From: a virus | Lineage: Duplodnaviria; Caudoviricetes | Length of the DNA: 56,028 nt | IMG/VR virus record: IMGVR_UViG_3300041809_000290 | Span: 1 to 56,028 of that record | Direction: 5' to 3' (one strand) | In this document: positions 1 through 55,581 of the stretch, piece after piece | Position numbering within the stretch: the first letter of the stretch is position 1 | Layout: every line of letters starts with the position of its first letter | Notes under the pieces: model-generated | The model's database searches: none | Seen by the model: only the letters and a program-made list of their open reading frames with translations | Told to the model about the DNA's origin: nothing | Made by a program: the position numbers and the translations under genes

Positions 1-128
1 GGCTCAGGTCGCCGTACACGTGGCTCAGATTGCCGGACACGCCGCTCAGATTGCCGGACACGCCGCTCAGGTCGCCGTACACGTGGCTCAGGTCGCCGGA
101 CACGCCGCTCAGATTGCCGGACACGCCG
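1..128 (-). repeat. 21-bp coding tandem repeat, about 6 copies
   Basis: Units GTGTCCGGCAATCTGAGCGGC / GTGTACGGCGACCTGAGCCAC on the minus strand. Confidence 0.9.
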
Positions 129-208
129 CGCGGAGCTCCTTGGTGCTCCGAGCCTTCCTCATCAATCCAGTAGATTTTTGCCTCGATTCGAACTAGGACT
201 GCCTTCAT
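1..208 (-). CDS. Heptad-repeat protein, truncated by window edge (MKAVLVRIEAKIYW...VSGNLSG/VYGDLSH repeats)
   Basis: Not in ORF track. ATG at 208 with GGAGG RBS; frame stays open to base 1; translated by hand. Confidence 0.75.
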   Translation of the reverse strand, partial: MKAVLVRIEAKIYWIDEEGSEHQGAPRGVSGNLSGVSGDLSHVYGDLSGVSGNLSGVSGNLSHVYGDLS

Positions 209-3487: not shown

Positions 3488-3706
3488 TCATTCTGCTTCG
3501 TCTACAACTTCATATTTTATGTCTTCACTTATGACCAGTACTTTGTTATCTGGAAATAGCGCAGAAAATACGCCATCTATTTTGGCTTGTATTTCATCTG
3601 GAACACCAAACGGCACTGTTACGATAATTTTTGCTGATTTAGGAACCTTAACTACTTGAACTGATTTGAGTTCAAGCTCTTGCCCTTCATTGTTGATAAG
3701 TTTCAT
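3488..3706 (-). CDS. Hypothetical protein
   Basis: ORF with GGGAGG RBS. Confidence 0.7.
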   Translation of the reverse strand: MKLINNEGQELELKSVQVVKVPKSAKIIVTVPFGVPDEIQAKIDGVFSALFPDNKVLVISEDIKYEVVDEAE

Positions 3707-3876
3707 TTCTTATGCCTCCCTCGATTAGACTTTAGTTTAAACGGCTTTTTTGTTGAAGCATAACATAACGGCTTAGCTTCAGAGTTGGTGTTAGGAGTTA
3801 CGCAAACATCGCCGTGACGACAGTGAGCTTTCCATCGGCACTTGCATATCCGCTCACTTCCGTCAGGATTTTGCAT
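3703..3876 (-). CDS. Cys-rich 57-aa microprotein, paralogue of 3986-4159
   Basis: MQNPDGSERICKCRWKAHCRHGDVC...PLCY; AAAGGAGG RBS; ATGA overlap with next gene. Confidence 0.7.
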   Translation of the reverse strand: MQNPDGSERICKCRWKAHCRHGDVCVTPNTNSEAKPLCYASTKKPFKLKSNRGRHKK

Positions 3877-3900
3877 ACATCTATGCCTCCTTTAAACACC

Positions 3901-3965
3901 ATATTATCCATATAATTGTATTCCTTCAATCTTAATTTGAATTAAATCTCAAAATTTGATAATAT
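3901..3965. promoter_or_regulatory. Back-to-back sigma70-type promoters
   Basis: Minus: TTGAAG(3929-3924)-17-TAATAT. Plus: TTGAAT(3937)-17-TAATAT(3960). Located at the strand switch. Confidence 0.7.
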
Positions 3966-3985
3966 TAAAGGCCATTGGAGGCTTT

Positions 3986-4159
3986 ATGAATGGGAAAGAG
4001 CGTACAGGTGAACCTTTGTGTAGTTGTCAGTGGGCCTTAGACTGTCATAAAGGGCTAAAATGCCCTTCTCGGCAGCATCATGCATCTGAACTTCCTCCTG
4101 ATTGCTATCAAAATCGAAATCCTATTATACATGAGGAATTAAATTTACACAATAGTTAA
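3986..4159 (+). CDS. Cys-rich 57-aa microprotein
   Basis: GGAGG RBS, ATG 3986; LCSCQWALDCHKGLKC...PDCY. Confidence 0.7.
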   Translation: MNGKERTGEPLCSCQWALDCHKGLKCPSRQHHASELPPDCYQNRNPIIHEELNLHNS

Positions 4160-4168
4160 ATTTAATGA

Positions 4169-4197
4169 TTGACACTATTAAATAATAGGTTTAGTAT
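4169..4197 (+). promoter_or_regulatory. sigma70-type promoter
   Basis: TTGACA-17-TAGTAT. Confidence 0.7.
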
Positions 4198-4259
4198 CGG
4201 TGAATGGCATGATCCAACGGTGTTCGTATGAACACCTATTAAGAAGCATGGAGGCCAAA

Positions 4260-4664
4260 ATGGCAGTAGTCAAGACAAGAGAGCCACGACAGACTTTTCG
4301 AGGGCTTTCGATCAGCGCGGCAAATCCGATGGGGCGAAGGAGCGGTCATCGGGCTCCTCGATCTCTTCGGCGGCGCGGATTCAATCGAATCGAAGAATGC
4401 AAAGATGAGGATATCGCCAAGTACGTCTTCGGCCTCGATCTTCAAGGAGAGCGAAACGCTATCGATAAGAAAAGGATGGCCACTCTTAGGGGTCAAATCA
4501 CAAAGTTGGAGAAACAGGTAGTCAAAGATCCGAAGGATGATCAGCTTGAAAAGAATCGGGAAATTCAGATTCGTATCAACGCACTACAACACGATATAGA
4601 TTCCATGGAAGTTCCGGTTAAGAAGATAGAGGCCCTTGTTAAGGATTTTCGGAGCGCCGTATGA
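4260..4664 (+). CDS. Hypothetical protein with Arg-rich N-terminus and coiled coil
   Basis: GGAGG RBS before ATG 4260. Confidence 0.75.
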   Translation: MAVVKTREPRQTFRGLSISAANPMGRRSGHRAPRSLRRRGFNRIEECKDEDIAKYVFGLDLQGERNAIDKKRMATLRGQITKLEKQVVKDPKDDQLEKNREIQIRINALQHDIDSMEVPVKKIEALVKDFRSAV

Positions 4665-4918
4665 AGTTGCGCGATATCCGAAATGGAGCTATCTATCCCA
4701 TCGACTCTTTAGTTCCCATGGATGGGCCTAATTCCGGCCCATATGTCATGACGGGTATCATCTCACGATCTTCGACTCCTATTCAGATTCCTTCAGAGTT
4801 TTGTGAGATCATTCTTGGTTCTAGGGACAGGCAAAGTGCTGAGATCCAAGCTCGCTATTTAGAAAATGCTCCTACCTTTTCAAACTTCACTCCTTCTCCA
4901 GAGGAGGATGACGACTAG
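4661..4918 (+). CDS. Hypothetical protein
   Basis: ATGA-coupled ORF. Confidence 0.7.
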   Translation: MKLRDIRNGAIYPIDSLVPMDGPNSGPYVMTGIISRSSTPIQIPSEFCEIILGSRDRQSAEIQARYLENAPTFSNFTPSPEEDDD

Positions 4919-4920
4919 AC

Positions 4921-5028
4921 TGCGAAACTGTCTGAGTAATCCAAGGGAAGAAAGCGGGTCATTGGGGATGATCAACATGTAGATGACGAGCGAGTCTTGT
5001 GTTCAAAGAAAACCAGAACCATTGAGCG
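4921..5028 (+). ncRNA. TIGR-like guide RNA array 1 (3 x 36-nt units)
   Basis: Units start at 4921, 4957, 4993: 5-nt edge, N9, loop (AGTAATCCA / degenerate / AGAAAACCA), N9, AGCG. Confidence 0.7.
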
Positions 5029-5029
5029 C

Positions 5030-5053
5030 GCCCACCTTAATTGGTGGGCTTTT
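5030..5053 (+). terminator. Intrinsic terminator
   Basis: GCCCACC-ttaatt-GGTGGGC-TTTT. Confidence 0.85.
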
Positions 5054-5056
5054 ATA

Positions 5057-5085
5057 TTGAAATAAACTCAATTTATTCATAATAT
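5057..5085 (+). promoter_or_regulatory. sigma70-type promoter
   Basis: TTGAAA-17-TAATAT. Confidence 0.65.
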
Positions 5086-5104
5086 ACCAAAGGAAGGTGG
5101 TTTT

Positions 5105-5371
5105 ATGCAAAGCATTGAAGATATGTTAGGTCCTCCAATTTTTATAAACGATGTCAATACAAAGTGGTGGCATGATCATCGTGTAAATGAATTATTAATG
5201 CTTAACAGTTTGACTCAACAATTCTCTGCTTGGATAGTAAGATTCGGGGATGGTCAGATTGAACGCGTTTTAGTTACTGAGCCAGACCATGAAGTCATGC
5301 ATTCAACTAAAAACTACAATGAAATGGAAATTGCTATTCTTGAATTAAAACACCAAAAGGAGGGAATATGA
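5105..5371 (+). CDS. Hypothetical protein
   Basis: ORF with RBS. Confidence 0.7.
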   Translation: MQSIEDMLGPPIFINDVNTKWWHDHRVNELLMLNSLTQQFSAWIVRFGDGQIERVLVTEPDHEVMHSTKNYNEMEIAILELKHQKEGI

Positions 5372-5556
5372 ACTTATTCCAATATCTTATTATGGTAGGC
5401 TTAATCACATCTATTCTCGGATTTGTTCTTATGTTTGTTCATAAATATTTTATTTCCAACAGCATCATCTATAAATTGACAAAGTATCGTTATATAGTAC
5501 TTATCATTGGTTGCACGTTGTGCATGATCTACAATTTACGTTGTCTGATAGTTTAG
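5368..5556 (+). CDS. Small membrane protein (2 TM)
   Basis: Two hydrophobic stretches; AGGAGG RBS. Confidence 0.65.
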   Translation: MNLFQYLIMVGLITSILGFVLMFVHKYFISNSIIYKLTKYRYIVLIIGCTLCMIYNLRCLIV

Positions 5557-5566
5557 GAGGTATAAT

Positions 5567-5821
5567 TTGGTGTTTAAGGTAGGCGAAATAGTAAAATGCA
5601 TTGACAGTTCGTTTCTTAAAGATGAGGACAAGTCTCACTTCGATCAATGGCTTGTTGAAGGCAACATTTATACGGTTCGAAATCTATGTTTGATGCCAAA
5701 TCATGATCCTGGAATTTATTTAAATGAAATCAGGGGCCACGTTGCACATTGTCTGGAAACAGATTGTGAAATGGAATATTGCTTTAATCCAAACAGGTTT
5801 CAAAGAATAGGAGGGGAATGA
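5567..5821 (+). CDS. Hypothetical protein, paralogue of 43562-43906
   Basis: FKVGEIVKCID...GNIYTVR...NRF motif; AGGAGG RBS. Confidence 0.7.
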   Translation: MVFKVGEIVKCIDSSFLKDEDKSHFDQWLVEGNIYTVRNLCLMPNHDPGIYLNEIRGHVAHCLETDCEMEYCFNPNRFQRIGGE

Positions 5822-6048
5822 TGAATTCAGATGATGAACTAATTGAGGAGGAAGATTCTCTCGCTAATGCTGCTGGAATTACACCTCCGGACATTCTTTT
5901 AAAGGGAGACAATATTGCGCCGAAAGTCACACATCCTTGGGACTATATTCATTTATCCAAAGTAGAACGCAAGGGAAAGACCTATGAGGAATTGCAAGAA
6001 ATTCGCAAAGAAAAATGGTATGAATTGAATAACAAATCCGTTATATGA
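5818..6048 (+). CDS. Hypothetical protein
   Basis: Coupled ORF; ends in a 20-bp tandem duplication. Confidence 0.6.
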   Translation: MMNSDDELIEEEDSLANAAGITPPDILLKGDNIAPKVTHPWDYIHLSKVERKGKTYEELQEIRKEKWYELNNKSVI

Positions 6049-6125
6049 ATAACAAATCCGTTACTCCTGGCTATCTCAAGTATAGATCCATCTTCTGAAA
6101 TTGAAATCACGAAGGAGGAACCAAA

Positions 6126-7031
6126 ATGAAGCATGTATTTTATCATGGAGCAGACTTAGATGGATGGTGTGCTGGATTTATTTGTTCTCTAGGGTTGCGT
6201 GCAGAGGGTGTAGAGTATGAACTACATTCTTATGATTATGGAAATTCGTTTCCTCACAACGAAGTGGACCTCAAGAAGGATTCGTTGATATTTACGGATG
6301 TAGTTCCTAGTCCTTATGACAATCTTTTGCGTATATGCCAAGAAGGATATGATATTACAATTATCGATCATCACAAATCTTTAATAGAGTTCGTGCAATC
6401 ACAATTGACTTCATTTGATATCAAAGGACTTTTAAGTGATCAAGTTTCAGCTTGCATGCTTGCGTGGAAATACTATTTCCCTTCTTTAACTGTTCCTGAG
6501 TATATTAAACTACTTAGTTTATATGATACTTGGAACAATAAAGACAAAGAACTTTGGGACAACCGTATCATGCCATTTCAATTGGGTTCTCGGGTACATG
6601 CTAAAAATCCCTCAATTGATAACAATTTTTGGAATGATCTTCAGGACCATCGTTATGATTCTGAACGCATAAACAAAATTATTAATGACGGTATAGTATG
6701 CATGGATTACAAAAAACAAGATGATGAGAAGAACTGCCATCTGTCATTCAATGGAACGATGGTTGATTTTCCTAGTTATCGTTGTATTTGTTTAAACACT
6801 GGTTTTTGTGGTTCACAAACTTTTGAAAGCAAATGGAATGAAAATGATTATGACATTATGCTCGCGTATAATTACAACGGCCATGGATTTTCGGTTAGTC
6901 TTTATACTACCAAAGATATTGATGTATCAAAAATAGCGGTATCATATGGAGGAGGAGGCCACAAACAAGCAGCAGGATTTAGAGTTAAATCTGTTGAGAT
7001 AAAGGATGGTATTATAATATTTACTAAGTAA
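6126..7031 (+). CDS. DHH/DHHA1-family phosphoesterase
   Basis: HGADLDG, FTD, IIDHH and C-terminal GGGGHKQAAGF motifs. Confidence 0.92.
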   Translation: MKHVFYHGADLDGWCAGFICSLGLRAEGVEYELHSYDYGNSFPHNEVDLKKDSLIFTDVVPSPYDNLLRICQEGYDITIIDHHKSLIEFVQSQLTSFDIKGLLSDQVSACMLAWKYYFPSLTVPEYIKLLSLYDTWNNKDKELWDNRIMPFQLGSRVHAKNPSIDNNFWNDLQDHRYDSERINKIINDGIVCMDYKKQDDEKNCHLSFNGTMVDFPSYRCICLNTGFCGSQTFESKWNENDYDIMLAYNYNGHGFSVSLYTTKDIDVSKIAVSYGGGGHKQAAGFRVKSVEIKDGIIIFTK

Positions 7032-7285
7032 TGTCTATGATAGTAAGAATTCCAATCAAAGAGAGCGCGCCAGTTGCTTTGAGTAATCCAACGTCTATGA
7101 GCGGACCAAATAGTGTGAGTAAACCAATAGTGGTGAGTGTGTCAGGCAGTTTAGAGTAAACCAGAAGTAGTGAGCGGGTCAAAAGTGGTGAGACATCCAA
7201 AAAGGAAGAACGAACCAAGAATGAAAAGACGACCAATTAGCTAAAGTGAGCCTAACATCGATGAGAAATCCAGCGAGAGAAAGCG
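7032..7285 (+). ncRNA. TIGR-like guide RNA array 2 (7 units of 36-37 nt)
   Basis: Units start at 7032, 7068, 7104, 7140, 7177, 7213, 7249; edge AGYG|nnYCA alternates with loop AGWnnWCCA around 9-10-nt variable segments. Confidence 0.8.
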
Positions 7286-7295
7286 TATTTTGATT

Positions 7296-7323
7296 AAAGC
7301 CCGATTAGTTATCGGGCTTTTTT
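7296..7323 (+). terminator. Intrinsic terminator (possibly bidirectional)
   Basis: AAAGCCCGAT-tagtt-ATCGGGCTTTTTT. Confidence 0.85.
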
Positions 7324-7348
7324 AATTCCGTGTCATCATCACGGAATT
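7324..7348. repeat. Dispersed 25-bp palindrome, copy 1
   Basis: AATTCCGTG-TCATCAT-CACGGAATT. Confidence 0.9.
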
Positions 7349-7415
7349 GATTCTATTATAGAAGGTTGCTAATCGGACAATCCATGTGGTATCATTATTC
7401 GAATAGGAGAAGCGC

Positions 7416-8153
7416 GTGATGCTCAGATTAGTGGTTCCCGTTGAATCTCGTTTAATGAAATCCCGACAACAAAATTCAACTCAAGGAGTTCGACTTGTCG
7501 TCAACGAGGATTCATGCAAGATTGAGAGCAAGCAAAGCACGACCCGTTGGAAGAATATTGAAAAAAGCCATCAATCAACAATTGTATTACAACGGGGATC
7601 AAGACCATCCCAAAAACAAGTTGCGTTATTGTCGAAGAATAATAGTCGATTACAGAGTAAATGCGAGAATGCGATCATTGAAAAACTCGCAGAGATCGAA
7701 CACGATAGATGGAGTGGGCAAGCTAGAACTGCTTTAGATAAAATGGATAATGAACGAAGAACGAGATGGGATAAATTGTCCAAGACTCCATATGATAAAT
7801 TAACAGAGGAAATGAAACAAAAATATAGGGATCAAGTTTATGAATATTGGCCTATAATTAAATCATTTATTTTATCGATGATGGGCAGGAAATTTAAGAA
7901 AAGTTTAACTGATTTGTGGGTTGTTCCTCGAAGTCCTGGTATGTCTGTTGAAAATCATTCCAAGAAAACATTTAGAGTAATTGATGACAAACAATCGCTG
8001 TTTGACACTGACGAAGAACAACAGAAGAAGCAAGAGAAGAACAATACTGAATTGAAGATAATAAACAAGCATCGTAAGAAGGCCGTGAACCACCAAATTC
8101 AACAATCAAGAACTTCTATTGATCCCGTATATGCGCCAGAGCAAATGTATTAG
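7416..8153 (+). CDS. Protein with RyR-like domain
   Basis: EKLAEIEHDRW...TPYDKLTEEMKQKYR resembles the RyR repeat motif; several xxKS motifs. Confidence 0.6.
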   Translation: MMLRLVVPVESRLMKSRQQNSTQGVRLVVNEDSCKIESKQSTTRWKNIEKSHQSTIVLQRGSRPSQKQVALLSKNNSRLQSKCENAIIEKLAEIEHDRWSGQARTALDKMDNERRTRWDKLSKTPYDKLTEEMKQKYRDQVYEYWPIIKSFILSMMGRKFKKSLTDLWVVPRSPGMSVENHSKKTFRVIDDKQSLFDTDEEQQKKQEKNNTELKIINKHRKKAVNHQIQQSRTSIDPVYAPEQMY

Positions 8154-8164
8154 GAGGGTTTGAA

Positions 8165-8731
8165 ATGGAACGACCTGGATGGGCAGACACTAAACCATGG
8201 GAAAAGTTTCCTGAGGATGTACGGGCTGACATTAGGATTAATGATAACTATATCAAGGACTTGGCTCCATACATTGCACATGAAATGTTGGTGGACGCTT
8301 ATCTCAATGCGGCGGACGAGAACACTCGTCATGATATAAATATAGTTGGAATGTACGAAGGATTTTGTGGGGCTGATAAGTTTTCTTTGTATTATAATCG
8401 TCCTCGTAAAATTCTTGATGAGACGTTGCTGTGTCCTAGACGGTTGGAGAGCCTTTCAGGGGAAATGTTTCCAGGTCGCGACCATTGGGCGAGAATAGGC
8501 GATTGGCGTTGCTGTAGTTTCTGTGGGTCTATGCACCCTGATGATGTGATAGAGGCTGTTAAGAAGTTTGGAACAACTATCGTAAGTACTTGTGATAAAT
8601 CCTACAAACGATATATACATTTGCCGAATACACCTAATGCGGGATTCGGTCCTATTAAATTTTATACCATGCACTTCAGCGATGAACAACGTAAGGCATT
8701 TAATGATTTGCTATTTAGTAGCGATCTGTAA
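8165..8731 (+). CDS. Hypothetical protein (CSFCGSMHP motif)
   Basis: ORF with AGGAGG RBS. Confidence 0.75.
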   Translation: MERPGWADTKPWEKFPEDVRADIRINDNYIKDLAPYIAHEMLVDAYLNAADENTRHDINIVGMYEGFCGADKFSLYYNRPRKILDETLLCPRRLESLSGEMFPGRDHWARIGDWRCCSFCGSMHPDDVIEAVKKFGTTIVSTCDKSYKRYIHLPNTPNAGFGPIKFYTMHFSDEQRKAFNDLLFSSDL

Positions 8732-8739
8732 AGGTAAAT

Positions 8740-9825
8740 ATGTCGAAACTTGTTATTGAAGTTGAAGATCCTCTTGTTGATTCCCAGGACAAATACGAAA
8801 AGGCAGTAGAGTCTTTGTCCAAGGCTCTTGGAATCAAACAATTTAAGGAAGAGTCTCATGAGCACGCCGAAACAACACCTTATAATTCATTAAAGGAACT
8901 AACTGATGATACTGTCAACGAGGTTCAACGTAAGCTATTCAGATTTTATACCGAAATAAGAGAGCAATGGATTTCGAGATCAATAAAGAAAGCAAAGGAC
9001 GGACGTATACTAAAACTAAATGGCAAGATATATTTAAATCCGAAGACTGGGAAGCCTTTAACAATATCTGAATGGAACGCAATAAAGAAGGATATCGATA
9101 ATCTCACTTCATGGATATTTGGAAATTATGATGAATCTCTTGTGAAGCGGGCTTTAGCTCTTGGGAGGATTCTACAAGGATTTGATACAATTGAAGAACG
9201 AATTGACTCGTCTATCGAAGACCTTGATATACCAAGAGTGATAAATTCTATAACGCATGATGAACTATATCGTGATATTATTAACTATGGAATGATCCAT
9301 ACTGGCGAATTAATAACCGATTTGACAAATAGGGCACGCAAGAAAATAGTCCAGGTGATTATGGATTCTTATAACAATAAGTCAACATCGAGAGAATTAA
9401 CTCAGGATTTATTCGATGCGTTCTCTACACTAAATAGGGATTGGCGACGAATCGCTGAGACTGAATTAGCATACAATTTTAATTCCGGCTATATGCTTGC
9501 CGAACTTGAACAATTGCCAGAAGGACAAGACTACGTATTTATGGAAGGTATTGCAGGAGGAGGCGCTTGTCCATTCTGTGCAAATAATGTGGATAGGAAA
9601 GAATTCGTATTGCTTAAATCCGCTCCCAAGGGTGGGGGCGATGTTGTTGAGATAGATGGTGACGAATATACGGCAATATGGCCGGGGAAGACTAATGAAA
9701 ATAGGTCAAGGTCTATGTGGAGGGTTTGCGTCATAAATCATCCGAATTGTTTGTGTACGTACATTAAGATCGATTATAGATCGGACGACTTTAGCAAGAG
9801 ATTGCGGGAAGTCGTTGAGCAATGA
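8740..9825 (+). CDS. Head morphogenesis protein (Mu gpF/SPP1 gp7-like)
   Basis: RDWRRIAETE, CPFC, HPNCLC motifs. Confidence 0.8.
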   Translation: MSKLVIEVEDPLVDSQDKYEKAVESLSKALGIKQFKEESHEHAETTPYNSLKELTDDTVNEVQRKLFRFYTEIREQWISRSIKKAKDGRILKLNGKIYLNPKTGKPLTISEWNAIKKDIDNLTSWIFGNYDESLVKRALALGRILQGFDTIEERIDSSIEDLDIPRVINSITHDELYRDIINYGMIHTGELITDLTNRARKKIVQVIMDSYNNKSTSRELTQDLFDAFSTLNRDWRRIAETELAYNFNSGYMLAELEQLPEGQDYVFMEGIAGGGACPFCANNVDRKEFVLLKSAPKGGGDVVEIDGDEYTAIWPGKTNENRSRSMWRVCVINHPNCLCTYIKIDYRSDDFSKRLREVVEQ

Positions 9826-9852
9826 TAGACTTAAATTAATAGGAGATAATAA

Positions 9853-10437
9853 ATGAACTTTCTAAGTCTATTCGGACGATACTTAGTAGCTAGAAGCGGC
9901 GGAATGGTTGAATCTCCCTGGATGATGGCTGCTGTTGACATGGGAGACTGTTTCTTAGGTACTGTTAATCCAACTACGTTAGCTGCATCAGGAACGATGC
10001 AGATACTATTGTCGATCCCCGTTGGTGTAGCTGCACACGTAAAAGATATGATGTGCAATTTAAACCAAGCATATTCTGTAGCGATAAGCTATTTAAGCGG
10101 AGCATGGGCTAAAACAGGACAACAACCTGTACTGAATTTAAATCTTGCAAACTATGGAGCATTGAAATCTCCCAAATGTTCGCTATGGTCTGGTTACACA
10201 GGTTCTCCTACATTAAATCCAATATTCACGGCAAATCTTCCTGCTACTGTAGGACATGAGAACTTGCTGTCGGGCGAGAATGAGAAGATAATCAAGGGCG
10301 GTGGTGCTGGAGCCCCTGGAACTTTTATGGATTACTTAATAGTTATAACCAATACTTCTGCTAGTTCCATGACTAACCCGTTCTTTAAATTGAGATGGGT
10401 TGAGGACGTGGATACTACTAATACTGCTGGACCGTAA
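9853..10437 (+). CDS. Putative virion structural protein
   Basis: ORF with RBS, located in head module. Confidence 0.6.
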   Translation: MNFLSLFGRYLVARSGGMVESPWMMAAVDMGDCFLGTVNPTTLAASGTMQILLSIPVGVAAHVKDMMCNLNQAYSVAISYLSGAWAKTGQQPVLNLNLANYGALKSPKCSLWSGYTGSPTLNPIFTANLPATVGHENLLSGENEKIIKGGGAGAPGTFMDYLIVITNTSASSMTNPFFKLRWVEDVDTTNTAGP

Positions 10438-16796: not shown

Positions 16797-17953
16797 ACCG
16801 AATATTGGTTGCCATAGGCAACGCTAACATACTTGAAATACTAGAGCAGTATACTCAAATAAAAATATATGTATCGGTAAATGGTGGAACCACGTACAAT
16901 GAACTCACCACCCCTGCCACTAGAATAACAATTAATTCCTATCAAGCTGAATATTATTATGATGATTTAACGGTATATACTGGAGTACCGCAAGTCTATT
17001 ATACCAGTTCATTTTATAATCCGGTCGGTCCCCTTGAGAGTGCTCAATCTGCGCCTCAAATAAATAGTCTGCAAAATACTCAAGTTGGATTTAGTTTCGA
17101 CAATTATATACCTCCTCCTAACGAGTGGGGCAAAATATTGACGGCGGATGATCTTCGATATACCTATATGTGGGGAATCGATATGACATCTTCCGATGTA
17201 GAACAGACTAACTTTCAAGACTCACAACTCGACTTCTATATTCGAGAATCCGTGGGAGATTGGGAACGATTGCTTGATTTTGATATAATGAAGCACGTTT
17301 ATAAAACTGACGATCCAATCCTAGATCCTATTAGTAAGTATCATCGCTCGAAATATTGGAGAGGCGGTGTAGATTACACTGATGAAGATGATTCGTATCC
17401 TTATGACCCGATGCAATGGCAGAATTTTGGATTCTTGCAGTTGAGACATCAACCTATTGTATCCGTTGAACGTTGTATATTTAAAAATCCTGTAGGTGGA
17501 CAAATGATGGATTTGATTGCTATGCAGTGGATTCGAATTAATAAAAAGGCCGGGCAATTAAACTTCTACCCCACTAACGGAGCGCCATACGGTCCGTTCG
17601 CTAGTGGAGTATTGCCATGGAGGTTGTTTGGTGGAAGATATTCAAATGCATATTATGTTAACTATACAACGGGATTTCCGACATCTGAGTTTGTTCCTGA
17701 TGACCTTCGGTCGGTAATCGGGAAATGGGCAGTTATTAAAATAATGTCAACAGTTGGTGATGGACTTCTGGCCGGATTTAGTTCTCAAAGTGTTAGTCTT
17801 GATGGAATATCGGAGAGTTTTTCTAGCACGCAAAGCGCTACGTCTGCTTTCTTTGGAGCTAGAATAATGCAGATGCAAAGGGAAATCAAGGATTGGCTTG
17901 ATAACAATAGGTCTAAATACGGCAAAATCCCGCTTAGTTTTACGGGATTCTAA
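16793..17953 (+). CDS. Head-tail adaptor/neck protein
   Basis: VNYTTGF...GFSSQSVSLDGISESFSSTQSA motif; position. Confidence 0.75.
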   Translation: MNRILVAIGNANILEILEQYTQIKIYVSVNGGTTYNELTTPATRITINSYQAEYYYDDLTVYTGVPQVYYTSSFYNPVGPLESAQSAPQINSLQNTQVGFSFDNYIPPPNEWGKILTADDLRYTYMWGIDMTSSDVEQTNFQDSQLDFYIRESVGDWERLLDFDIMKHVYKTDDPILDPISKYHRSKYWRGGVDYTDEDDSYPYDPMQWQNFGFLQLRHQPIVSVERCIFKNPVGGQMMDLIAMQWIRINKKAGQLNFYPTNGAPYGPFASGVLPWRLFGGRYSNAYYVNYTTGFPTSEFVPDDLRSVIGKWAVIKIMSTVGDGLLAGFSSQSVSLDGISESFSSTQSATSAFFGARIMQMQREIKDWLDNNRSKYGKIPLSFTGF

Positions 17954-17956
17954 CGC

Positions 17957-17981
17957 AATTCCGTGTCATCGTCACGGAATT
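17957..17981. repeat. Dispersed 25-bp palindrome, copy 2
   Basis: AATTCCGTG-TCATCGT-CACGGAATT. Confidence 0.9.
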
Positions 17982-32603: not shown

Positions 32604-34712
32604 ATGGTCCTTAACGCAAGTAGAGCTATAAAAGCTGCACAGTTTTACTCTGGAGAACAAGCTACCAGCGCTGATTTTAATTTTATGGCACAAGAGACCT
32701 ATCAAAATGAAGTTGAACTTTTGGCGATGCTCGCTAATAACGAAGATGTGGATGATGTCTCCACTTCGGATACTGTTATAGCCGGTTTAATTGCTACAAC
32801 AATATCAAATTTAAACGTTACACTAACTGCCGGATGCGCGGTATCTTTCTCGGGATCTTATTGGTCCAATAATACCTGGGGATGGGTTTCCGGCGCTGGA
32901 AACATATTTGGGGTTATTAATCCATCGGATCAGGTTCTTGCATTTGGATCTAATTCTGGAACTTACACCAGATATGATATCGTCGAGATTCAACCAGTAT
33001 TAAATAGTTATAATTCTTCATCTCGACAGTTTATAGACCCTGTTACGCAGCAAGTATCGACAAATAATGTTAATACAAGATATGAATTTGGAATTAATAT
33101 AGTAATTAAACCAGGAAATGCTTCGGTTCAAAATACCTATCCGACTACTGATCCTGGATACATTAAAGTTATGGAAGTGGCTATACCTGTGGGGGCTACA
33201 ACTCCAAGTTATGTATATGACTCTCGAAACACTGGATTATGGAATGGCAATAATGGCGGTACAAGGTGCAGTAAAGATTTGTTTTATTATATTGCACAAA
33301 ATGCTGCAAGTTCTCCTTTTACCACTTCGTTGCCATTGGCATCGGCAAATAGAGGAAGAATGTATATTTTTCAAAAAACCGATAGTAGTGCAAATACCGT
33401 TACTGTAACTGTTACTGGAGCCGATACTATCAATGGATCGGTCACTTCAATTGTTCTGTCTTCACAATGGGATTACGTTGTTCTTCGTGCTATTAATTCA
33501 GGAAATTATATTGTCATCGCTAATGGAATTGGGCAATGGAAATCTGCATTAACAAAGCCGTTGGGTGCAGGTTGGCCGATAGCACTAAATGCTTCTGCCG
33601 TGTTGGGGTCGGCAAACGGAATTGATGCGGCATCGGTTATTCAGTATGGAATAGGGACACTAAGCCCTCCGAGCATAACAAATCTTAACCAATATTTGCC
33701 TGGGGGATTTTATTTAACTACTAATGCTTGTACGGGTGCACCAGGAGGGCTGGCTCACTACTTTGAAGTAATAATTGTTACTGTAAGTACTACACAATCT
33801 GTACAATACGCATTTGATACTTCCACATTAATATTATATAAAAGATACTATTCGGGTGGGGCAGGCACTTGGGGCACGATTTATGATTCAGTATCTCTGC
33901 CTCTCGGGACCAACTGGCCCGCAGTCCTTGCAGGCGCTCTCGGGACCAACTGGCCCGCAGTCCTTGCAGGCGCTCTCGGGACCAACTGGCCCGCAGTCCT
34001 TGCAGGCGGGACGATGGGCTCCGGGTCCGGAGCAGGAGGCACGATCCCCAACGGCCCGTGGACCAGCTATACGTTCTGGTCGAGCGGAGTCGGCCCGAAT
34101 ACCGTCATCCTGCCGCCTATCTCCAGCATGCAAGTAGGCAATAGGGTCACGGTGTACACTGGGGCCGCGGTTACGACTATAAACGCGGCCGGATCGGACC
34201 ATCTTGGATATTATGGCGGATCGTATGGGACTTCTTTTGTTCTCCAGGCGTGCGGCGACTATGTTACTCTCGAATACAACCCGGCGGGCCTATGGGCCGT
34301 CGTCGCGACGAACGGACCGGAACTTGAAGCATCTTATAGCGGTTCAATAACAACCGGAACTCCTGGTTCAGGTGTACCTTATAATATAGGAAATATTGTT
34401 TTAGTTCCTGGAGTTTACGATTTATTAATGACGGGGGACGTAGACGCTGAAACAGGTTACGCTACAACTATGTCCCTGTTAGCCGCTTTGTCTACATCTT
34501 CTTCTAGTATATCTGACAATGATCTGGCCGGGGAGGCACTAGTTGGAATGCAAAGTGCGAATGTAGGCGAAGTTCGAGGGTCAATAACTAAATTAAAAAG
34601 AGTTATTATCACTACATCAACAACTTATTATTTAATATTTTTATTATATGGTAACAGTCCTCCACTTGCTTATTATAGAAACTTTAGAATAAGTGCAAGA
34701 AGATTGGCATAA
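32604..34712 (+). CDS. Tail fibre / receptor-binding protein
   Basis: RYDIV N-terminal anchor motif, modular Gly/Ser/Thr-rich body, last tail gene. Confidence 0.85.
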   Translation: MVLNASRAIKAAQFYSGEQATSADFNFMAQETYQNEVELLAMLANNEDVDDVSTSDTVIAGLIATTISNLNVTLTAGCAVSFSGSYWSNNTWGWVSGAGNIFGVINPSDQVLAFGSNSGTYTRYDIVEIQPVLNSYNSSSRQFIDPVTQQVSTNNVNTRYEFGINIVIKPGNASVQNTYPTTDPGYIKVMEVAIPVGATTPSYVYDSRNTGLWNGNNGGTRCSKDLFYYIAQNAASSPFTTSLPLASANRGRMYIFQKTDSSANTVTVTVTGADTINGSVTSIVLSSQWDYVVLRAINSGNYIVIANGIGQWKSALTKPLGAGWPIALNASAVLGSANGIDAASVIQYGIGTLSPPSITNLNQYLPGGFYLTTNACTGAPGGLAHYFEVIIVTVSTTQSVQYAFDTSTLILYKRYYSGGAGTWGTIYDSVSLPLGTNWPAVLAGALGTNWPAVLAGALGTNWPAVLAGGTMGSGSGAGGTIPNGPWTSYTFWSSGVGPNTVILPPISSMQVGNRVTVYTGAAVTTINAAGSDHLGYYGGSYGTSFVLQACGDYVTLEYNPAGLWAVVATNGPELEASYSGSITTGTPGSGVPYNIGNIVLVPGVYDLLMTGDVDAETGYATTMSLLAALSTSSSSISDNDLAGEALVGMQSANVGEVRGSITKLKRVIITTSTTYYLIFLLYGNSPPLAYYRNFRISARRLA
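33901..34008 (+). repeat. Three perfect 36-bp coding repeats (LGTNWPAVLAGA)
   Basis: CTCTCGGGACCAACTGGCCCGCAGTCCTTGCAGGCG x3. Confidence 0.95.
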
Positions 34713-37499: not shown

Positions 37500-37524
37500 A
37501 ATTTCGTGTCATCATCACGGAATC
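37500..37524. repeat. Dispersed 25-bp palindrome, copy 3
   Basis: AATTTCGTG-TCATCAT-CACGGAATC (2 mismatches to copy 1). Confidence 0.85.
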
Positions 37525-55237: not shown

Positions 55238-55558
55238 ATGGCAGATAAAAGCTGGAAAGCCTTTGAACGAGTTGTGGCTAGATTCTTTGGGACAGAGCGC
55301 AATCCGTTGTCTGGAGAGAACAGCCGGCATCATACTAATTCCGATTCATTGCATCCTACTTTATATATCGAATGCAAGCGCGACCTAAGTATATTTCCTA
55401 AAAAGCTCATTGATTTAATTATGGATACGGAGGAGAAGGCTTCACAGGAAGGCAAGATTCCTATTATTGCATTAAAACAACACAGGCGTAAGGGTTTTTA
55501 TATGCTCATTCATAGTGCTGATGTTTTGGACGTGGCTTCAGAAGTAGTAGAAGAATAA
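55238..55558 (+). CDS. PD-(D/E)xK Holliday junction resolvase-like protein
   Basis: WKAFERVVA...SD...YIECK. Confidence 0.7.
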   Translation: MADKSWKAFERVVARFFGTERNPLSGENSRHHTNSDSLHPTLYIECKRDLSIFPKKLIDLIMDTEEKASQEGKIPIIALKQHRRKGFYMLIHSADVLDVASEVVEE

Positions 55559-55581
55559 TTCCGTGACGACGACACGGAATT
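55557..55581. repeat. Dispersed 25-bp palindrome, copy 4 (inverted orientation)
   Basis: AATTCCGTG-ACGACGA-CACGGAATT; reverse-complement spacer is TCGTCGT. Confidence 0.9.

What the first reader, a model, noticed from the sequence alone, without database searches (positions are those of the whole stretch)
7032..7285. Top candidate: TIGR-like tandem dual-spacer guide array with no adjacent Tas gene
Seen: seven units. TGTCT-atgatagta-AGAATTCCA-atcaaagag-AGCG | CGCCA-gttgctttg-AGTAATCCA-acgtctatg-AGCG | GACCA-aatagtgtg-AGTAAACCA-atagtggtg-AGTG | TGTCA-ggcagtttag-AGTAAACCA-gaagtagtg-AGCG | GGTCA-aaagtggtg-AGACATCCA-aaaaggaag-AACG | AACCA-agaatgaaa-AGACGACCA-attagctaa-AGTG | AGCCT-aacatcgatg-AGAAATCCA-gcgagagaa-AGCG. 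Two units have a 1-nt insertion, arguing against coding constraint. Known: TIGR-Tas arrays have 36-nt units with alternating edge and loop repeats, CCA boxes and two 9-nt spacers, and guide Nop-domain Tas proteins to both DNA strands. Differences here: the 3' box reads (G)AG rather than the UG I recall, spacers are purine-rich and partly similar to each other, and no Nop-domain protein is recognisable in 56 kb. Inference: an RNA-guided system with dispersed arrays and a distant or different effector, or decoy guides.
Basis: partly seen in the sequence, partly recalled or inferred. Interest (0 to 1): 0.92.

Follow-up and report, generated by a model that had tools for sequence, protein, structure and literature searches.

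The report
Phage TIGR guide-RNA arrays without Tas
This stretch is a real array of seven small guide RNAs of the recently described TIGR-Tas system, carried by a phage fragment that holds no gene for the partner protein, so it is a new example of a known system in an unusual, uncoupled layout.

Summary
7032-7285 (+) is seven 36/37-nt units of half-edge, spacer, loop repeat, spacer, half-edge. It starts one base after the DHH gene's stop codon and ends in AGCG plus an intrinsic terminator.

A second three-unit array of the same type lies at 4921-5028.

The same AG...CCA 36-nt architecture fills more than 100 IMG/VR phage loci. In 70 of 119 of them it sits beside a ~290-aa protein that matches NCBIfam TIGR_Tas_endo and solved TasH/TasR chains.

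All 30 predicted tigRNA base pairs in the ten window units are kept, four through changes on both sides. This argues for function rather than decay.

No Tas is encoded in the 56 kb. However, the record is only about 58% of a genome.

In eight other phage records, arrays lie 5-61 kb from the only tas gene. Three records rated complete carry arrays and no tas.

Most likely these are working arrays whose tas lies in the unsequenced part of the genome. A trans-supplied Tas is the main rival.

This scan has noted orphan or satellite TIGR arrays on other DNA before.

The parts
4169..4197 (+). sigma-70-like promoter candidate (TTGACA-17-TAGTAT) ahead of operon B
   Evidence: Consensus scan, 10 of 12 matches. 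Promoter-like sites are not enriched over shuffles in this region, so this is a candidate only. An RNA-library contig starts at 4193.
4200..4918 (+). operon B: two ORFs of unknown function (4200-4664, 154 aa, C-terminal coiled coil; 4661-4918, 85 aa)
   Evidence: ORF list. No Pfam family passes its cut-off. The Atlas gave no usable relatives. hhalign to the Tas profile gave 2.2% for the 154-aa ORF.
4921..5028 (+). array B: three 36-nt tigRNA units (4921-4956, 4957-4992, 4993-5028). It starts 3 nt after the TAG stop and ends in AGCG.
   Evidence: Sequence. Each unit matches covariance model R1, which was built from these ten units, at E<=0.0014. All end pairs are kept. It is covered by contigs of three metatranscriptome runs.
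5030..5049 (+). intrinsic terminator after array B (7-bp stem with 6 GC pairs, then a T run)
5057..5085 (+). sigma-70-like promoter candidate (TTGAAA-17-TAATAT) ahead of operon A
   Evidence: 9 of 12 matches; candidate only
5105..7031 (+). operon A: four small ORFs (5105-5371, 5368-5556, 5567-5821, 5818-6048) and a 301-aa DHH/DHHA1 phosphoesterase (6126-7031) whose stop codon abuts the array
   Evidence: ORFs. Pfam gives DHHA1 at 26.6 bits (cut-off 25.9) and DHH at 21.9 bits (below its cut-off of 28.1). None of these proteins has a relative in the other array-bearing loci.
7032..7285 (+). array A (the finding): seven 36/37-nt tigRNA units. Each is a 5-nt 3' half of an edge repeat, spacer A, a 9-nt A-rich loop repeat AG....CCA, spacer B, and a 4-nt 5' half of the edge repeat A[GA][CT]G.
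7296..7320 (+). intrinsic terminator after array A (10-bp stem, then a T run)
   Evidence: also the terminal hairpin in the RNA fold.

Best explanation
7032-7285 is a genuine dual-repeat TIGR (tigRNA) array, and 4921-5028 is a smaller one of the same type. The steps below are marked as shown or inferred.

1. Each array is the untranslated tail of an early rightward operon and is transcribed with it up to an intrinsic terminator. The terminators and the array position are shown. Co-transcription is supported only for array B.

2. A dual-repeat-type Tas dimer binds the box D (AG) and box C (CCA) motifs of the edge and loop repeats. This Tas would belong to the ~290-aa family that sits beside the same AG...CCA arrays in other phages. 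It has no recognisable nuclease domain, so it is TasA-like. This step is inferred from the architecture shared with Tas-linked arrays.

3. The precursor is cut inside each edge repeat between positions 4 and 5 (AGCG|NNYCA), giving 36/37-nt tigRNAs. The 5' and 3' ends of each tigRNA form two base pairs, and its loop repeat closes with one G-C pair. The cut site is inferred from where the arrays begin and end. The pairs are shown by covariation.

4. The two 9-nt spacers pair with opposite strands of an 18-bp DNA site. Because this Tas family lacks a nuclease domain, the outcome is more likely binding or repression than cleavage. This step is inferred from Faure 2025 and Xu 2026.

5. The tas gene is not in these 56 kb. 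I think it most likely lies in the unsequenced ~40% of this phage genome.
For: **Architecture.** The array meets the published definition read: alternating 9-nt repeats, 9-nt spacers, a 5'-truncated edge at the start, and a 3'-truncated edge plus terminator at the end.

**Same kind of array next to Tas elsewhere.**
- 106 of the 119 hold arrays of 4 or more half-units. Their repeats are the same words as in the window, such as AGCGAGTCA, AGTAAACCA and AGAAATCCA.
- 70 loci encode one protein of a single cluster, median 288 aa. This cluster hits PDB TasH and an IS110-C-terminal-domain chain.
- 3 of 4 tested members of the cluster pass NCBIfam TIGR_Tas_endo.
- The median array-to-tas distance is 34 nt.

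**RNA-level constraint.**
- 30 of 30 cells of the three predicted pairs are standard pairs over the ten units. Changes on both sides are GC to AU twice, CG to UA once, and GC to UA once in a loop repeat. 0 of 500 shuffles reach this, and slid controls give 0-55%.
- Read within a single edge-repeat copy instead, 3 of 12 cells are unpaired (edge list).
- The same in-unit pairing holds in the other loci: 407 of 436 informative cells (93%), against 75-81% for three alternative registers.
- Box positions deviate in 4 of 65 cells, against 18 of 52 for inner repeat positions in array A (Fisher p=1e-4).

**Transcription.** Contigs of three metatranscriptome runs cover 4193-5022, 4561-5026 and 4733-5013, that is operon B plus array B. 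They cover little else of 3500-9000. A DNA run covers 24 of 30 bins.

**Distant tas is common.**
- In 8 other records, arrays lie 4.9-61 kb from the single tas gene.
- The window record is rated 58% complete.
- Its colinear relatives reach 80.8 kb at 84% completeness.
Against: - No tas was found, so the effector is inferred, not seen.
- The two closest relatives (66% and 49% capsid identity) have neither arrays nor tas in what is sequenced. The system is therefore accessory, and a tas acquired with the arrays would be expected next to them.
- Three records rated 100% complete carry arrays without any tas, so true orphans exist.
- Array A has the lowest repeat identity of 157 arrays (0.71 against a median of 0.90).
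- No processed 36-nt RNA has been seen.
- RNA-library contigs cannot prove transcription, and none covers array A.
- The shuffle control ignores that the units are paralogues. I also fixed the paired positions after reading the sequence, guided by the paper's description.
Confidence: 0.5

Rival explanations
1. True orphan arrays. The phage has no tas at all, and its tigRNAs are loaded onto a Tas made by a co-infecting phage, a prophage or the host. They would either redirect that protein to targets useful to this phage or soak it up as decoys.
For: - Three records rated 100% complete hold clear arrays: G032 (89 kb), G033 (51 kb, terminal repeats) and G040 (41.6 kb, terminal repeats).
- These three have no Tas by any test used. 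The A1 profile gave no hit. NF052498 gave no hit for G032 and G040. hmmsearch --max gave a best E of 0.19, and hhalign of 235 ORFs of 130 aa or more gave a best probability of 4.3%.
- One of them (L086) also ends in AGCG plus a terminator, like the window arrays.
- The window's box motifs and end pairs are conserved, as a trans-acting Tas of the common type would need.
- Relatives of the window phage lack tas.
Against: - The window record is only about 58% complete.
- Among the 9 records rated 90% complete or more whose array locus lacked a local tas, 5 do have a full tas elsewhere.
- No donor Tas or host is known.
- The decoy idea has no test behind it.
Confidence: 0.3
2. Relic: leftovers of a TIGR-Tas system whose tas was lost. 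They are still transcribed as operon tails but have no function.
For: - Array A has the lowest repeat identity of 157 arrays.
- Unit B2 has a loop repeat that departs from the AG....CCA form (ATCAACATG).
- A complete record (G024, L044) shows an array next to a 58-aa stump that resembles a Tas N-terminus, so decay of such systems does happen.
- No self-target was found.
Against: - Neutral decay would hit boxes and paired positions as often as other positions. Instead boxes deviate in 4 of 65 cells against 18 of 52.
- All 30 pair cells are kept, with four changes on both sides.
- All 14 half-units between the stop codon and the terminator are intact.
- The cultured phage phiRSL1 has similarly variable repeats directly beside its Tas gene, so variable repeats do not mean decay.
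Confidence: 0.1
3. A non-Tas effector encoded in the window uses the arrays, for example the DHH phosphoesterase or one of the small proteins in the two operons.
For: The arrays directly follow these genes in the same operons. Pfam gives no family above its cut-off for the small ORFs.
Against: - None of the ten neighbouring proteins has a relative in the other 119 array loci.
- None has a relative near the arrays of the three tas-less complete genomes.
- The DHH protein is covered by the DHH and DHHA1 matches.
- The geometry and boxes are those of Tas-bound arrays.
Confidence: 0.05
4. The periodicity reflects a hexapeptide-repeat coding sequence. Candidates are the 70-aa minus-strand ORF 7024-7236, or the 42-aa plus-strand ORF 7031-7159 that overlaps the DHH stop as TAATG.
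For: Both ORFs exist. In the plus frame CCA reads as proline for 3.5 units. The C-poor plus strand keeps the minus strand free of stops.
Against: - No frame stays open through either array. The longest covers 205 of 254 nt of array A and 94 of 115 nt of array B.
- The two 10-nt spacers shift the repeat register within the 70-aa ORF.
- Conservation comes in blocks of 2 and 3 bases rather than every third base.
- Compensatory pairs sit 31-33 nt apart.
- Spurious ORFs across such arrays are common: one BLAST cluster holds 147 of them in 63 loci.
Confidence: 0.02

Closest known systems
Dual-repeat TIGR-Tas systems (Faure et al., Science 2025, PMC12045711; passages and section 6 read). The nearest type is TasA, for example FpTIGR of Flavonifractor plautii.
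   Same: 36-nt units made of edge repeat, 9-nt spacer A, loop repeat and 9-nt spacer B. Box C is CCA. The loop repeat is A-rich. Two end base pairs are supported by covariation. The array starts with a 5'-truncated edge and ends with a 3'-truncated edge plus a rho-independent terminator. It occurs in a tailed phage.
   Different: Box D is AG, not the UG described for TasR arrays. There is no tas within 4.9 kb on the left (the contig end) or 48.7 kb on the right. The guides are split into two mini-arrays appended to unrelated operons. The repeats are far less uniform.
AG/CCA-box arrays beside NF052498-type Tas in IMG/VR phage contigs (for example L010, L004, L055), and Ralstonia phage phiRSL1 ORF034 ('transposase') with its unannotated downstream array (NC_010811.2, about 14.2-15.6 kb)
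   Same: The repeat words and geometry are identical. The in-unit end pairing is the same. The phiRSL1 array also keeps little more than the boxes, and its units match the window-derived model R1.
   Different: Those arrays abut their tas gene (median 34 nt). The window arrays do not.
Tas-distal and tas-less arrays in other phage records found here (G001, G011, G013, G014, G015, G026, G041, G045 with a distant tas; G032, G033, G040 with none). Similar cases were noted earlier by this scan.
   Same: Short arrays of the same family lie kilobases from tas or without one. L086 ends in AGCG plus a terminator, like the window arrays.
   Different: Several of those records are rated complete, so the presence or absence of tas is settled there. 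In the window it is not.
Orphan CRISPR arrays, viral mini-CRISPR arrays and repeat-derived RNA anti-CRISPRs
   Same: Guide or repeat units are carried without the effector gene by a mobile element. This is the precedent for trans use or decoy action.
   Different: The RNA architecture and protein family are unrelated. This is an analogy only.

Membership tests
Dual-repeat TIGR array (Faure 2025) | Two distinct alternating 8-12-nt repeats separated by ~9-nt spacers, giving 36-nt units | tested here: met
   There are 9-nt edge repeats (A[GA][CT]G NN[CT]C[AT]) and 9-nt loop repeats (AG....CCA). 18 of 20 spacers are 9 nt and 2 are 10 nt.
Dual-repeat TIGR array (Faure 2025) | Several units in tandem (most often 5-15) | tested here: met
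   Array A has 7 units. Array B has only 3.
Dual-repeat TIGR array (Faure 2025) | [quoted passage not shown] | tested here: met
   Both arrays start with a 5-nt half-edge just after a stop codon. Both end in AGCG followed by terminator-like hairpins at 5030-5049 and 7296-7320.
Dual-repeat TIGR array (Faure 2025) | Box D (UG) at the start and box C (CCA) at the end of both repeats, the motifs covarying between edge and loop | tested here: inconclusive
   Box C is CCA in all 7 loop repeats of array A and YCW in the edge repeats. Box D is AG, not UG, and is the same in edge and loop. The AG form is the one found in more than 100 arrays, most of them beside Tas. The paper says the motifs 'could diverge'. 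Its figure S4 could not be seen.
Dual-repeat TIGR array (Faure 2025) | Box C/D base pair plus one further edge pair between the two ends of a processed unit, supported by covariation | tested here: met
   30 of 30 cells are paired, 4 cells show changes on both sides, and 0 of 500 shuffles are as good. The family-wide figure is 93% against 75-81% for other registers.
Dual-repeat TIGR array (Faure 2025) | Adjacent gene for a Nop-domain Tas protein | tested here: not met
   There is no Tas in 56 kb by the HMM, hhalign, a six-frame profile search and NF052498 with a positive control. The record is about 58% complete.
Dual-repeat TIGR array (Faure 2025) | Transcribed and processed into 36-nt tigRNAs bound by Tas | not testable with these tools
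   The only data are contigs of three RNA libraries across operon B and array B. There are no small-RNA data.
Protein-coding hexapeptide repeat | One reading frame open through the whole repeat, with third-position variation | tested here: not met
   No frame spans either array. Conservation comes in blocks of 2 and 3 bases.

The most novel reading that the evidence does not exclude
The phage truly lacks tas. Its two mini-arrays are kept under selection, as the compensatory end pairs suggest, because their tigRNAs load onto the Tas protein of a competing phage or prophage in the same cell. They would either redirect that protein or titrate it, making them an RNA-only weapon or anti-TIGR decoy. 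Together with the tas-less arrays in three complete phage genomes found here, this would define a class of free-riding guide arrays.
Probability: 0.25. Interest if true: 0.8.

Novelty: new variant of a known kind. Interest (0 to 1): 0.5.

Why it matters
TIGR-Tas was described in 2025, and its natural targets and biology are still open.

**Gap in published catalogues.** Published catalogues look for arrays only around tas genes: TIGRFinder was applied to 20,096 tas loci. Arrays uncoupled from tas are therefore invisible to them. Two full-text searches and term look-ups in the two main papers found no mention of tas-less or distant dual-repeat arrays. The supplements could not be seen.

**What this window adds.** It is a clean case of two mini-arrays hitch-hiking on the 3' ends of unrelated early operons.

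**A usable criterion.** Compensatory pairing between the two half-edges that flank the same 36-nt unit allows a working tigRNA to be called from sequence alone, without the protein.

**Wider pattern.** In other phage records, arrays lie 5-61 kb from tas, or occur with no tas in genomes rated complete. This suggests that guide and effector are often separate genetic units in phages. That bears on how the guides are used (in cis, in trans, or against rivals) and on how such systems should be annotated.

Tried and rejected
**Tas searches that were uninformative**
- Pfam Nop PF01798, six frames on the window: 0 hits. I ran no Tas positive control for it, so it says little.
- Pfam PF02371, six frames: 0 hits in all 5 records, including G014, which does have a Tas. 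It failed its positive control and is uninformative.

**General screens**
- Rfam found nothing and there are no tRNAs.
- The RNA fold of 7020-7330 is no more stable than shuffles (z = -0.44). This is expected for an unprocessed TIGR precursor.

**Relatives of the array region**
- blastn of 5500-9900 against the phage collection: none.
- DHH protein in viral contigs and metagenome contigs: none.
- The 188-aa and 154-aa neighbours in viral contigs: none.

**Extending the contig**
- The second metagenome scan, with the left-end protein, gave only two short non-syntenic contigs with no Tas and no array.

**Relatives by capsid protein**
- Five relatives were found. None has Tas, the array pattern or R1 matches.

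**Self-targets**
- For the ten guides in both possible spacer arrangements, the best match in the window has 3 mismatches. This is no better than the two wrong-orientation controls, which have 4-5.

**Alternative effector**
- No array-neighbour protein is shared with other array loci.
- The Atlas gave nothing usable for the 154-aa and 85-aa proteins.
- hhalign of 366 ORFs within 2 kb of arrays in Tas-less loci: best probability 9%.

**RNA cover**
- No RNA-library contig covers array A. This says nothing either way.

**Technical failures**
- My first hhalign run failed through a wrong option and was repeated.
- The search for related loci with alignment A1 on genome contigs was rejected as too diverse. 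The single-protein rerun gave two MAG contigs, which I did not study.

**Not used**
- Structure prediction, fold search and complex prediction. There is no Tas in the window to fold or dock.
Full report
**What is there**

On the + strand, one base after the TAA stop of a DHH/DHHA1 phosphoesterase gene (6126-7031), the sequence runs through seven units of 36 or 37 nt up to 7285. It is followed by a terminator-like hairpin at 7296-7320 with a T run. Each unit reads as follows:
- a 5-nt half-edge (NN[CT]C[AT]);
- spacer A (9 nt, or 10 nt in units 4 and 7);
- a 9-nt A-rich loop repeat (AG....CCA);
- spacer B (9 nt);
- a 4-nt half-edge (A[GA][CT]G).

The chain of 14 half-units is unique in the window. 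A stricter two-half-unit pattern occurs 7 times (6 of them in the array), against 0.48 expected from 100 shuffles. Tandem Repeats Finder misses the array because only the box positions are constant.

It has three units in the same register and shares repeat words with array A (AGTAATCCA, AGCGGGTCA). It begins 3 nt after a TAG stop and ends in AGCG plus a terminator at 5030-5049.

A covariance model built from the ten units finds no further unit in the window; the next best match has E 0.51.

**Is it a TIGR array?**

The features of dual-repeat TIGR arrays, as I read them in Faure et al. 2025, are these:
- two alternating 8-12-nt repeats;
- 9-nt spacers;
- 5-15 units;
- a 5'-truncated edge at the start;
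- a 3'-truncated edge plus a rho-independent terminator at the end;
- box D and box C at the repeat ends;
- one box C/D base pair plus a second edge pair that covaries.

The arrays meet all of these except that box D is AG rather than UG.

To see whether AG...CCA arrays are real TIGR arrays, I scanned IMG/VR with a 52-nt pattern taken from the array. 106 of them hold arrays of 4 or more half-units, some up to 49 half-units long. Their repeats are dominated by AGCGAGCCA or AGCGAGTCA alternating with AGAAAACCA, AGTAAACCA, AGAAACCCA or AGAGCACCA.

Clustering all ORFs of these loci gave one protein family present once in each of 70 loci, with a median of 288 aa. An HMM of it hits 71 of 119 loci. 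Evidence on what this family is:
- A member matches PDB chains named TasH (E 2.5e-9) and an IS110-C-terminal-domain protein (E 5e-10).
- 3 of 4 tested members pass the curated cut-off of NCBIfam NF052498, 'TIGR-Tas system RNA-guided endonuclease'. The fourth scores 58 bits against a cut-off of 100.
- Pfam sees only the helix-hairpin-helix part and no nuclease domain. I therefore call the family TasA-like, without a structural test.

In the 67 loci that have both, arrays lie a median of 34 nt from this gene. The window's repeat type is therefore the ordinary guide array of a large, bona fide Tas family.

A cultured example is Ralstonia phage phiRSL1. Its ORF034 is annotated 'transposase'. A ~1.3-kb unannotated array follows it, and the repeats of that array are about as variable as those in the window.

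**Function or decay?**

Array A has the lowest repeat identity of the 157 arrays compared (0.71; the others range from 0.72 to 1.0 with a median of 0.90). That could mean decay, but the variation is not random.

- Box positions 1, 2, 7, 8 and 9 deviate from the majority in 4 of 65 cells. Inner positions deviate in 18 of 52 (Fisher p=1e-4). For both arrays together the figures are 11 of 90 against 23 of 72 (p=0.003).
- If each 36-nt unit is taken as the processed RNA, its 5' half-edge positions 6 and 7 pair with positions 3 and 2 of its own 3' half-edge in all ten units.
- Units A3 and A6 carry A:U where the others carry G:C. Unit A5, the only one with AA as box D, carries U:A where the others carry C:G or U:G.
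- The loop G2-C7 pair is kept in nine units and replaced by U-A in unit B2, whose loop repeat (ATCAACATG) departs from the usual AG....CCA form.
- In total, 30 of 30 cells are paired. 0 of 500 shuffles reach that, and slid controls give 0-55%.
- Read within a single edge-repeat copy instead, 3 of 12 cells fail (edge list).

Two caveats apply. The units are paralogues, which the shuffle control ignores. I also fixed the positions after looking at the sequence, guided by the paper's description of 'two solitary pairs'.

As an independent check I applied the same positions to the other loci. Where neighbouring edge repeats differ at those positions, the in-unit register gives 407 of 436 standard pairs (93%). 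Three other registers give 75-81%.

This is the signature of an RNA that must close its two ends after being cut in the middle of the edge repeat, as described for tigRNAs.

**Coding alternatives**

- No frame stays open through either array. The longest covers 205 of 254 nt of array A and 94 of 115 nt of array B.
- The 10-nt spacers shift the repeat register inside the 70-aa minus-strand ORF.
- Conservation comes in blocks rather than every third base.
- ORFs across such arrays are a common artefact: one BLAST cluster holds 147 of them in 63 loci.

**Expression**

Eleven public runs hold part of 4100-7400, all labelled wetland or peat metagenomes. Four of them are metatranscriptomes.

Contigs of three RNA libraries cover 4193-5022, 4561-5026 and 4733-5013. 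That is the operon 4200-4918 plus array B. They cover little else of 3500-9000. A DNA run covers 24 of 30 bins.

This fits strong transcription of operon B through its array. However, contigs cannot show RNA ends or strand, RNA libraries can hold DNA, and array A is not covered.

**Where is Tas?**

It is not in the window:
- c1 HMM against six-frame stretches: best E 0.63.
- hhalign of 89 ORFs: best probability 2.9%.
- Six-frame search with a 40-sequence Tas alignment: none.
- NF052498: none at E<=10, while the control record G014 scored 130.5 bits.

The neighbours of the arrays are a DHH phosphoesterase, a RyR-domain protein and small proteins with no family above its cut-off. None of them recurs near arrays elsewhere.

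The record is a linear fragment rated 58% complete. Its colinear relatives reach 57.6 kb (rated 60%) and 80.8 kb (rated 84%). These relatives have neither tas nor arrays. Their synteny with the window starts only at the head-morphogenesis gene at 8740, so the arrays sit in a variable early region.

I could not extend the contig.

**How unusual is an array without a neighbouring tas?**

I searched the whole records behind the loci that lacked a local Tas: 43 distinct records. Three further loci were not held.

- 15 of the 43 have a match elsewhere. Of these, three are fragments at contig ends or a weak 58-aa stump.
- Combining the Tas places with the locus ranges and array positions, arrays lie 4.9-61 kb from the only tas in eight records:

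| Record | Distance from arrays to the only tas |
|---|---|
| G001 | 4.9, 9.3 and 15.6 kb |
| G011 | 18 kb |
| G013 | 7 kb |
| G014 | 10.9 kb |
| G015 | 15 kb |
| G026 | 37 kb |
| G041 | 61 kb |
| G045 | 9 kb |

- Of the 9 records rated 90% complete or more, 5 have a full tas far away.
- One (G024) has only a short open frame resembling a Tas N-terminus beside its array.
- Three (G032, G033, G040) have clear arrays and no Tas by any test.

Both situations therefore exist. This scan has also noted several such orphan or satellite arrays on other DNA. Those are unverified AI notes that I did not test.

**Targets**

None of the ten guides, in either possible arrangement of the two spacers, matches the window better than the wrong-orientation controls do. 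Host and rival genomes are unknown.

Purine-rich, C-poor spacers are a trait of the whole array family, and I cannot explain it.

**Verdict**

This is a new example of a known system (TIGR-Tas) in a layout the literature I could search does not describe. Two mini-arrays are appended to unrelated operons, and no tas lies within at least 4.9 kb on one side and 48.7 kb on the other.

My odds are:

| Reading | Odds |
|---|---|
| tas lies in the missing ~40% of the genome | about 0.5 |
| Truly tas-less, with guides or decoys acting in trans | about 0.3 |
| Relic | about 0.1 |
| Anything else | small |

The supplements of the two main papers were not seen and may already list AG-box or distant arrays.

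Noticed in passing
window 4921-5028: A second, three-unit TIGR array of the same repeat type lies at the 3' end of the preceding operon, ending in AGCG plus a terminator. Unit B2 has a loop repeat that departs from the AG....CCA form (ATCAACATG), yet its positions 2 and 7 still pair (U-A).
   Followed up: yes
window 7324-7348, 17957-17981, 37500-37524, 55557-55581(-): A 25-bp palindrome (9-bp arms around a 7-bp core) occurs four times with 0-2 mismatches, against 0 expected. One copy lies directly after the array A terminator. No spacer matches it.
   Followed up: partly
window 6126-7031 and 7416-8153: A phage DHH/DHHA1 phosphoesterase directly abuts array A, and a RyR-domain protein follows it. 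Neither is linked to arrays in other loci.
   Followed up: partly
window 33901-34008: A perfect 3 x 36-nt tandem repeat (100% identity) lies inside the 702-aa ORF 32604-34712. It also has a 36-nt period but is coding and unrelated to the TIGR units.
   Followed up: no
window 2-129: A GC-rich 21/63-nt tandem repeat sits at the contig's left end. It lies inside a truncated minus-strand ORF with a heptapeptide-like GDLSGVS repeat, and its composition is unlike the rest of the window.
   Followed up: no
L064 (record G032), L067 (G033), L086 (G040): Three phage records rated 100% complete carry clear AG/CCA TIGR arrays but no Tas by profile, NCBIfam or hhalign searches. G032 and G040 each hold two arrays. 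The L064 array has perfect repeats between two copies of a promoter-like AT-rich repeat.
   Followed up: yes
L044 (record G024), about 17284-17352 of the record: An array is followed by a 58-aa open frame that resembles the N-terminus of the Tas family (A1 profile E 0.0076). This may be a truncated tas in a record rated complete.
   Followed up: partly
L014 versus L064: Two related phage contigs share three flanking gene families. L014 has tas plus an array after the 183-aa gene. L064 has no tas, and its array sits at a different position between the shared genes.
   Followed up: partly
L145 (Ralstonia phage phiRSL1, NC_010811.2, about 14.2-15.6 kb): ORF034, annotated 'transposase', is a Tas homologue (38% identity to the L004 Tas). 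The 1.4-kb unannotated gap after it is a long 36-nt array. Microcystis phage Mvi-JY20 also has a weaker homologue.
   Followed up: partly
L001-L119 arrays: Spacers of this whole array family are purine-rich and C-poor on the transcribed strand (mean purine 0.59, mean C 0.20 over 156 arrays). I have no explanation.
   Followed up: no
L146, L147: Tas homologues with 53-60% identity to the L004 Tas lie on contigs binned into a Candidatus Hydrogenedentota MAG and a Saccharimonadales (CPR) MAG. I did not check whether these are phage contigs or carry arrays.
   Followed up: no
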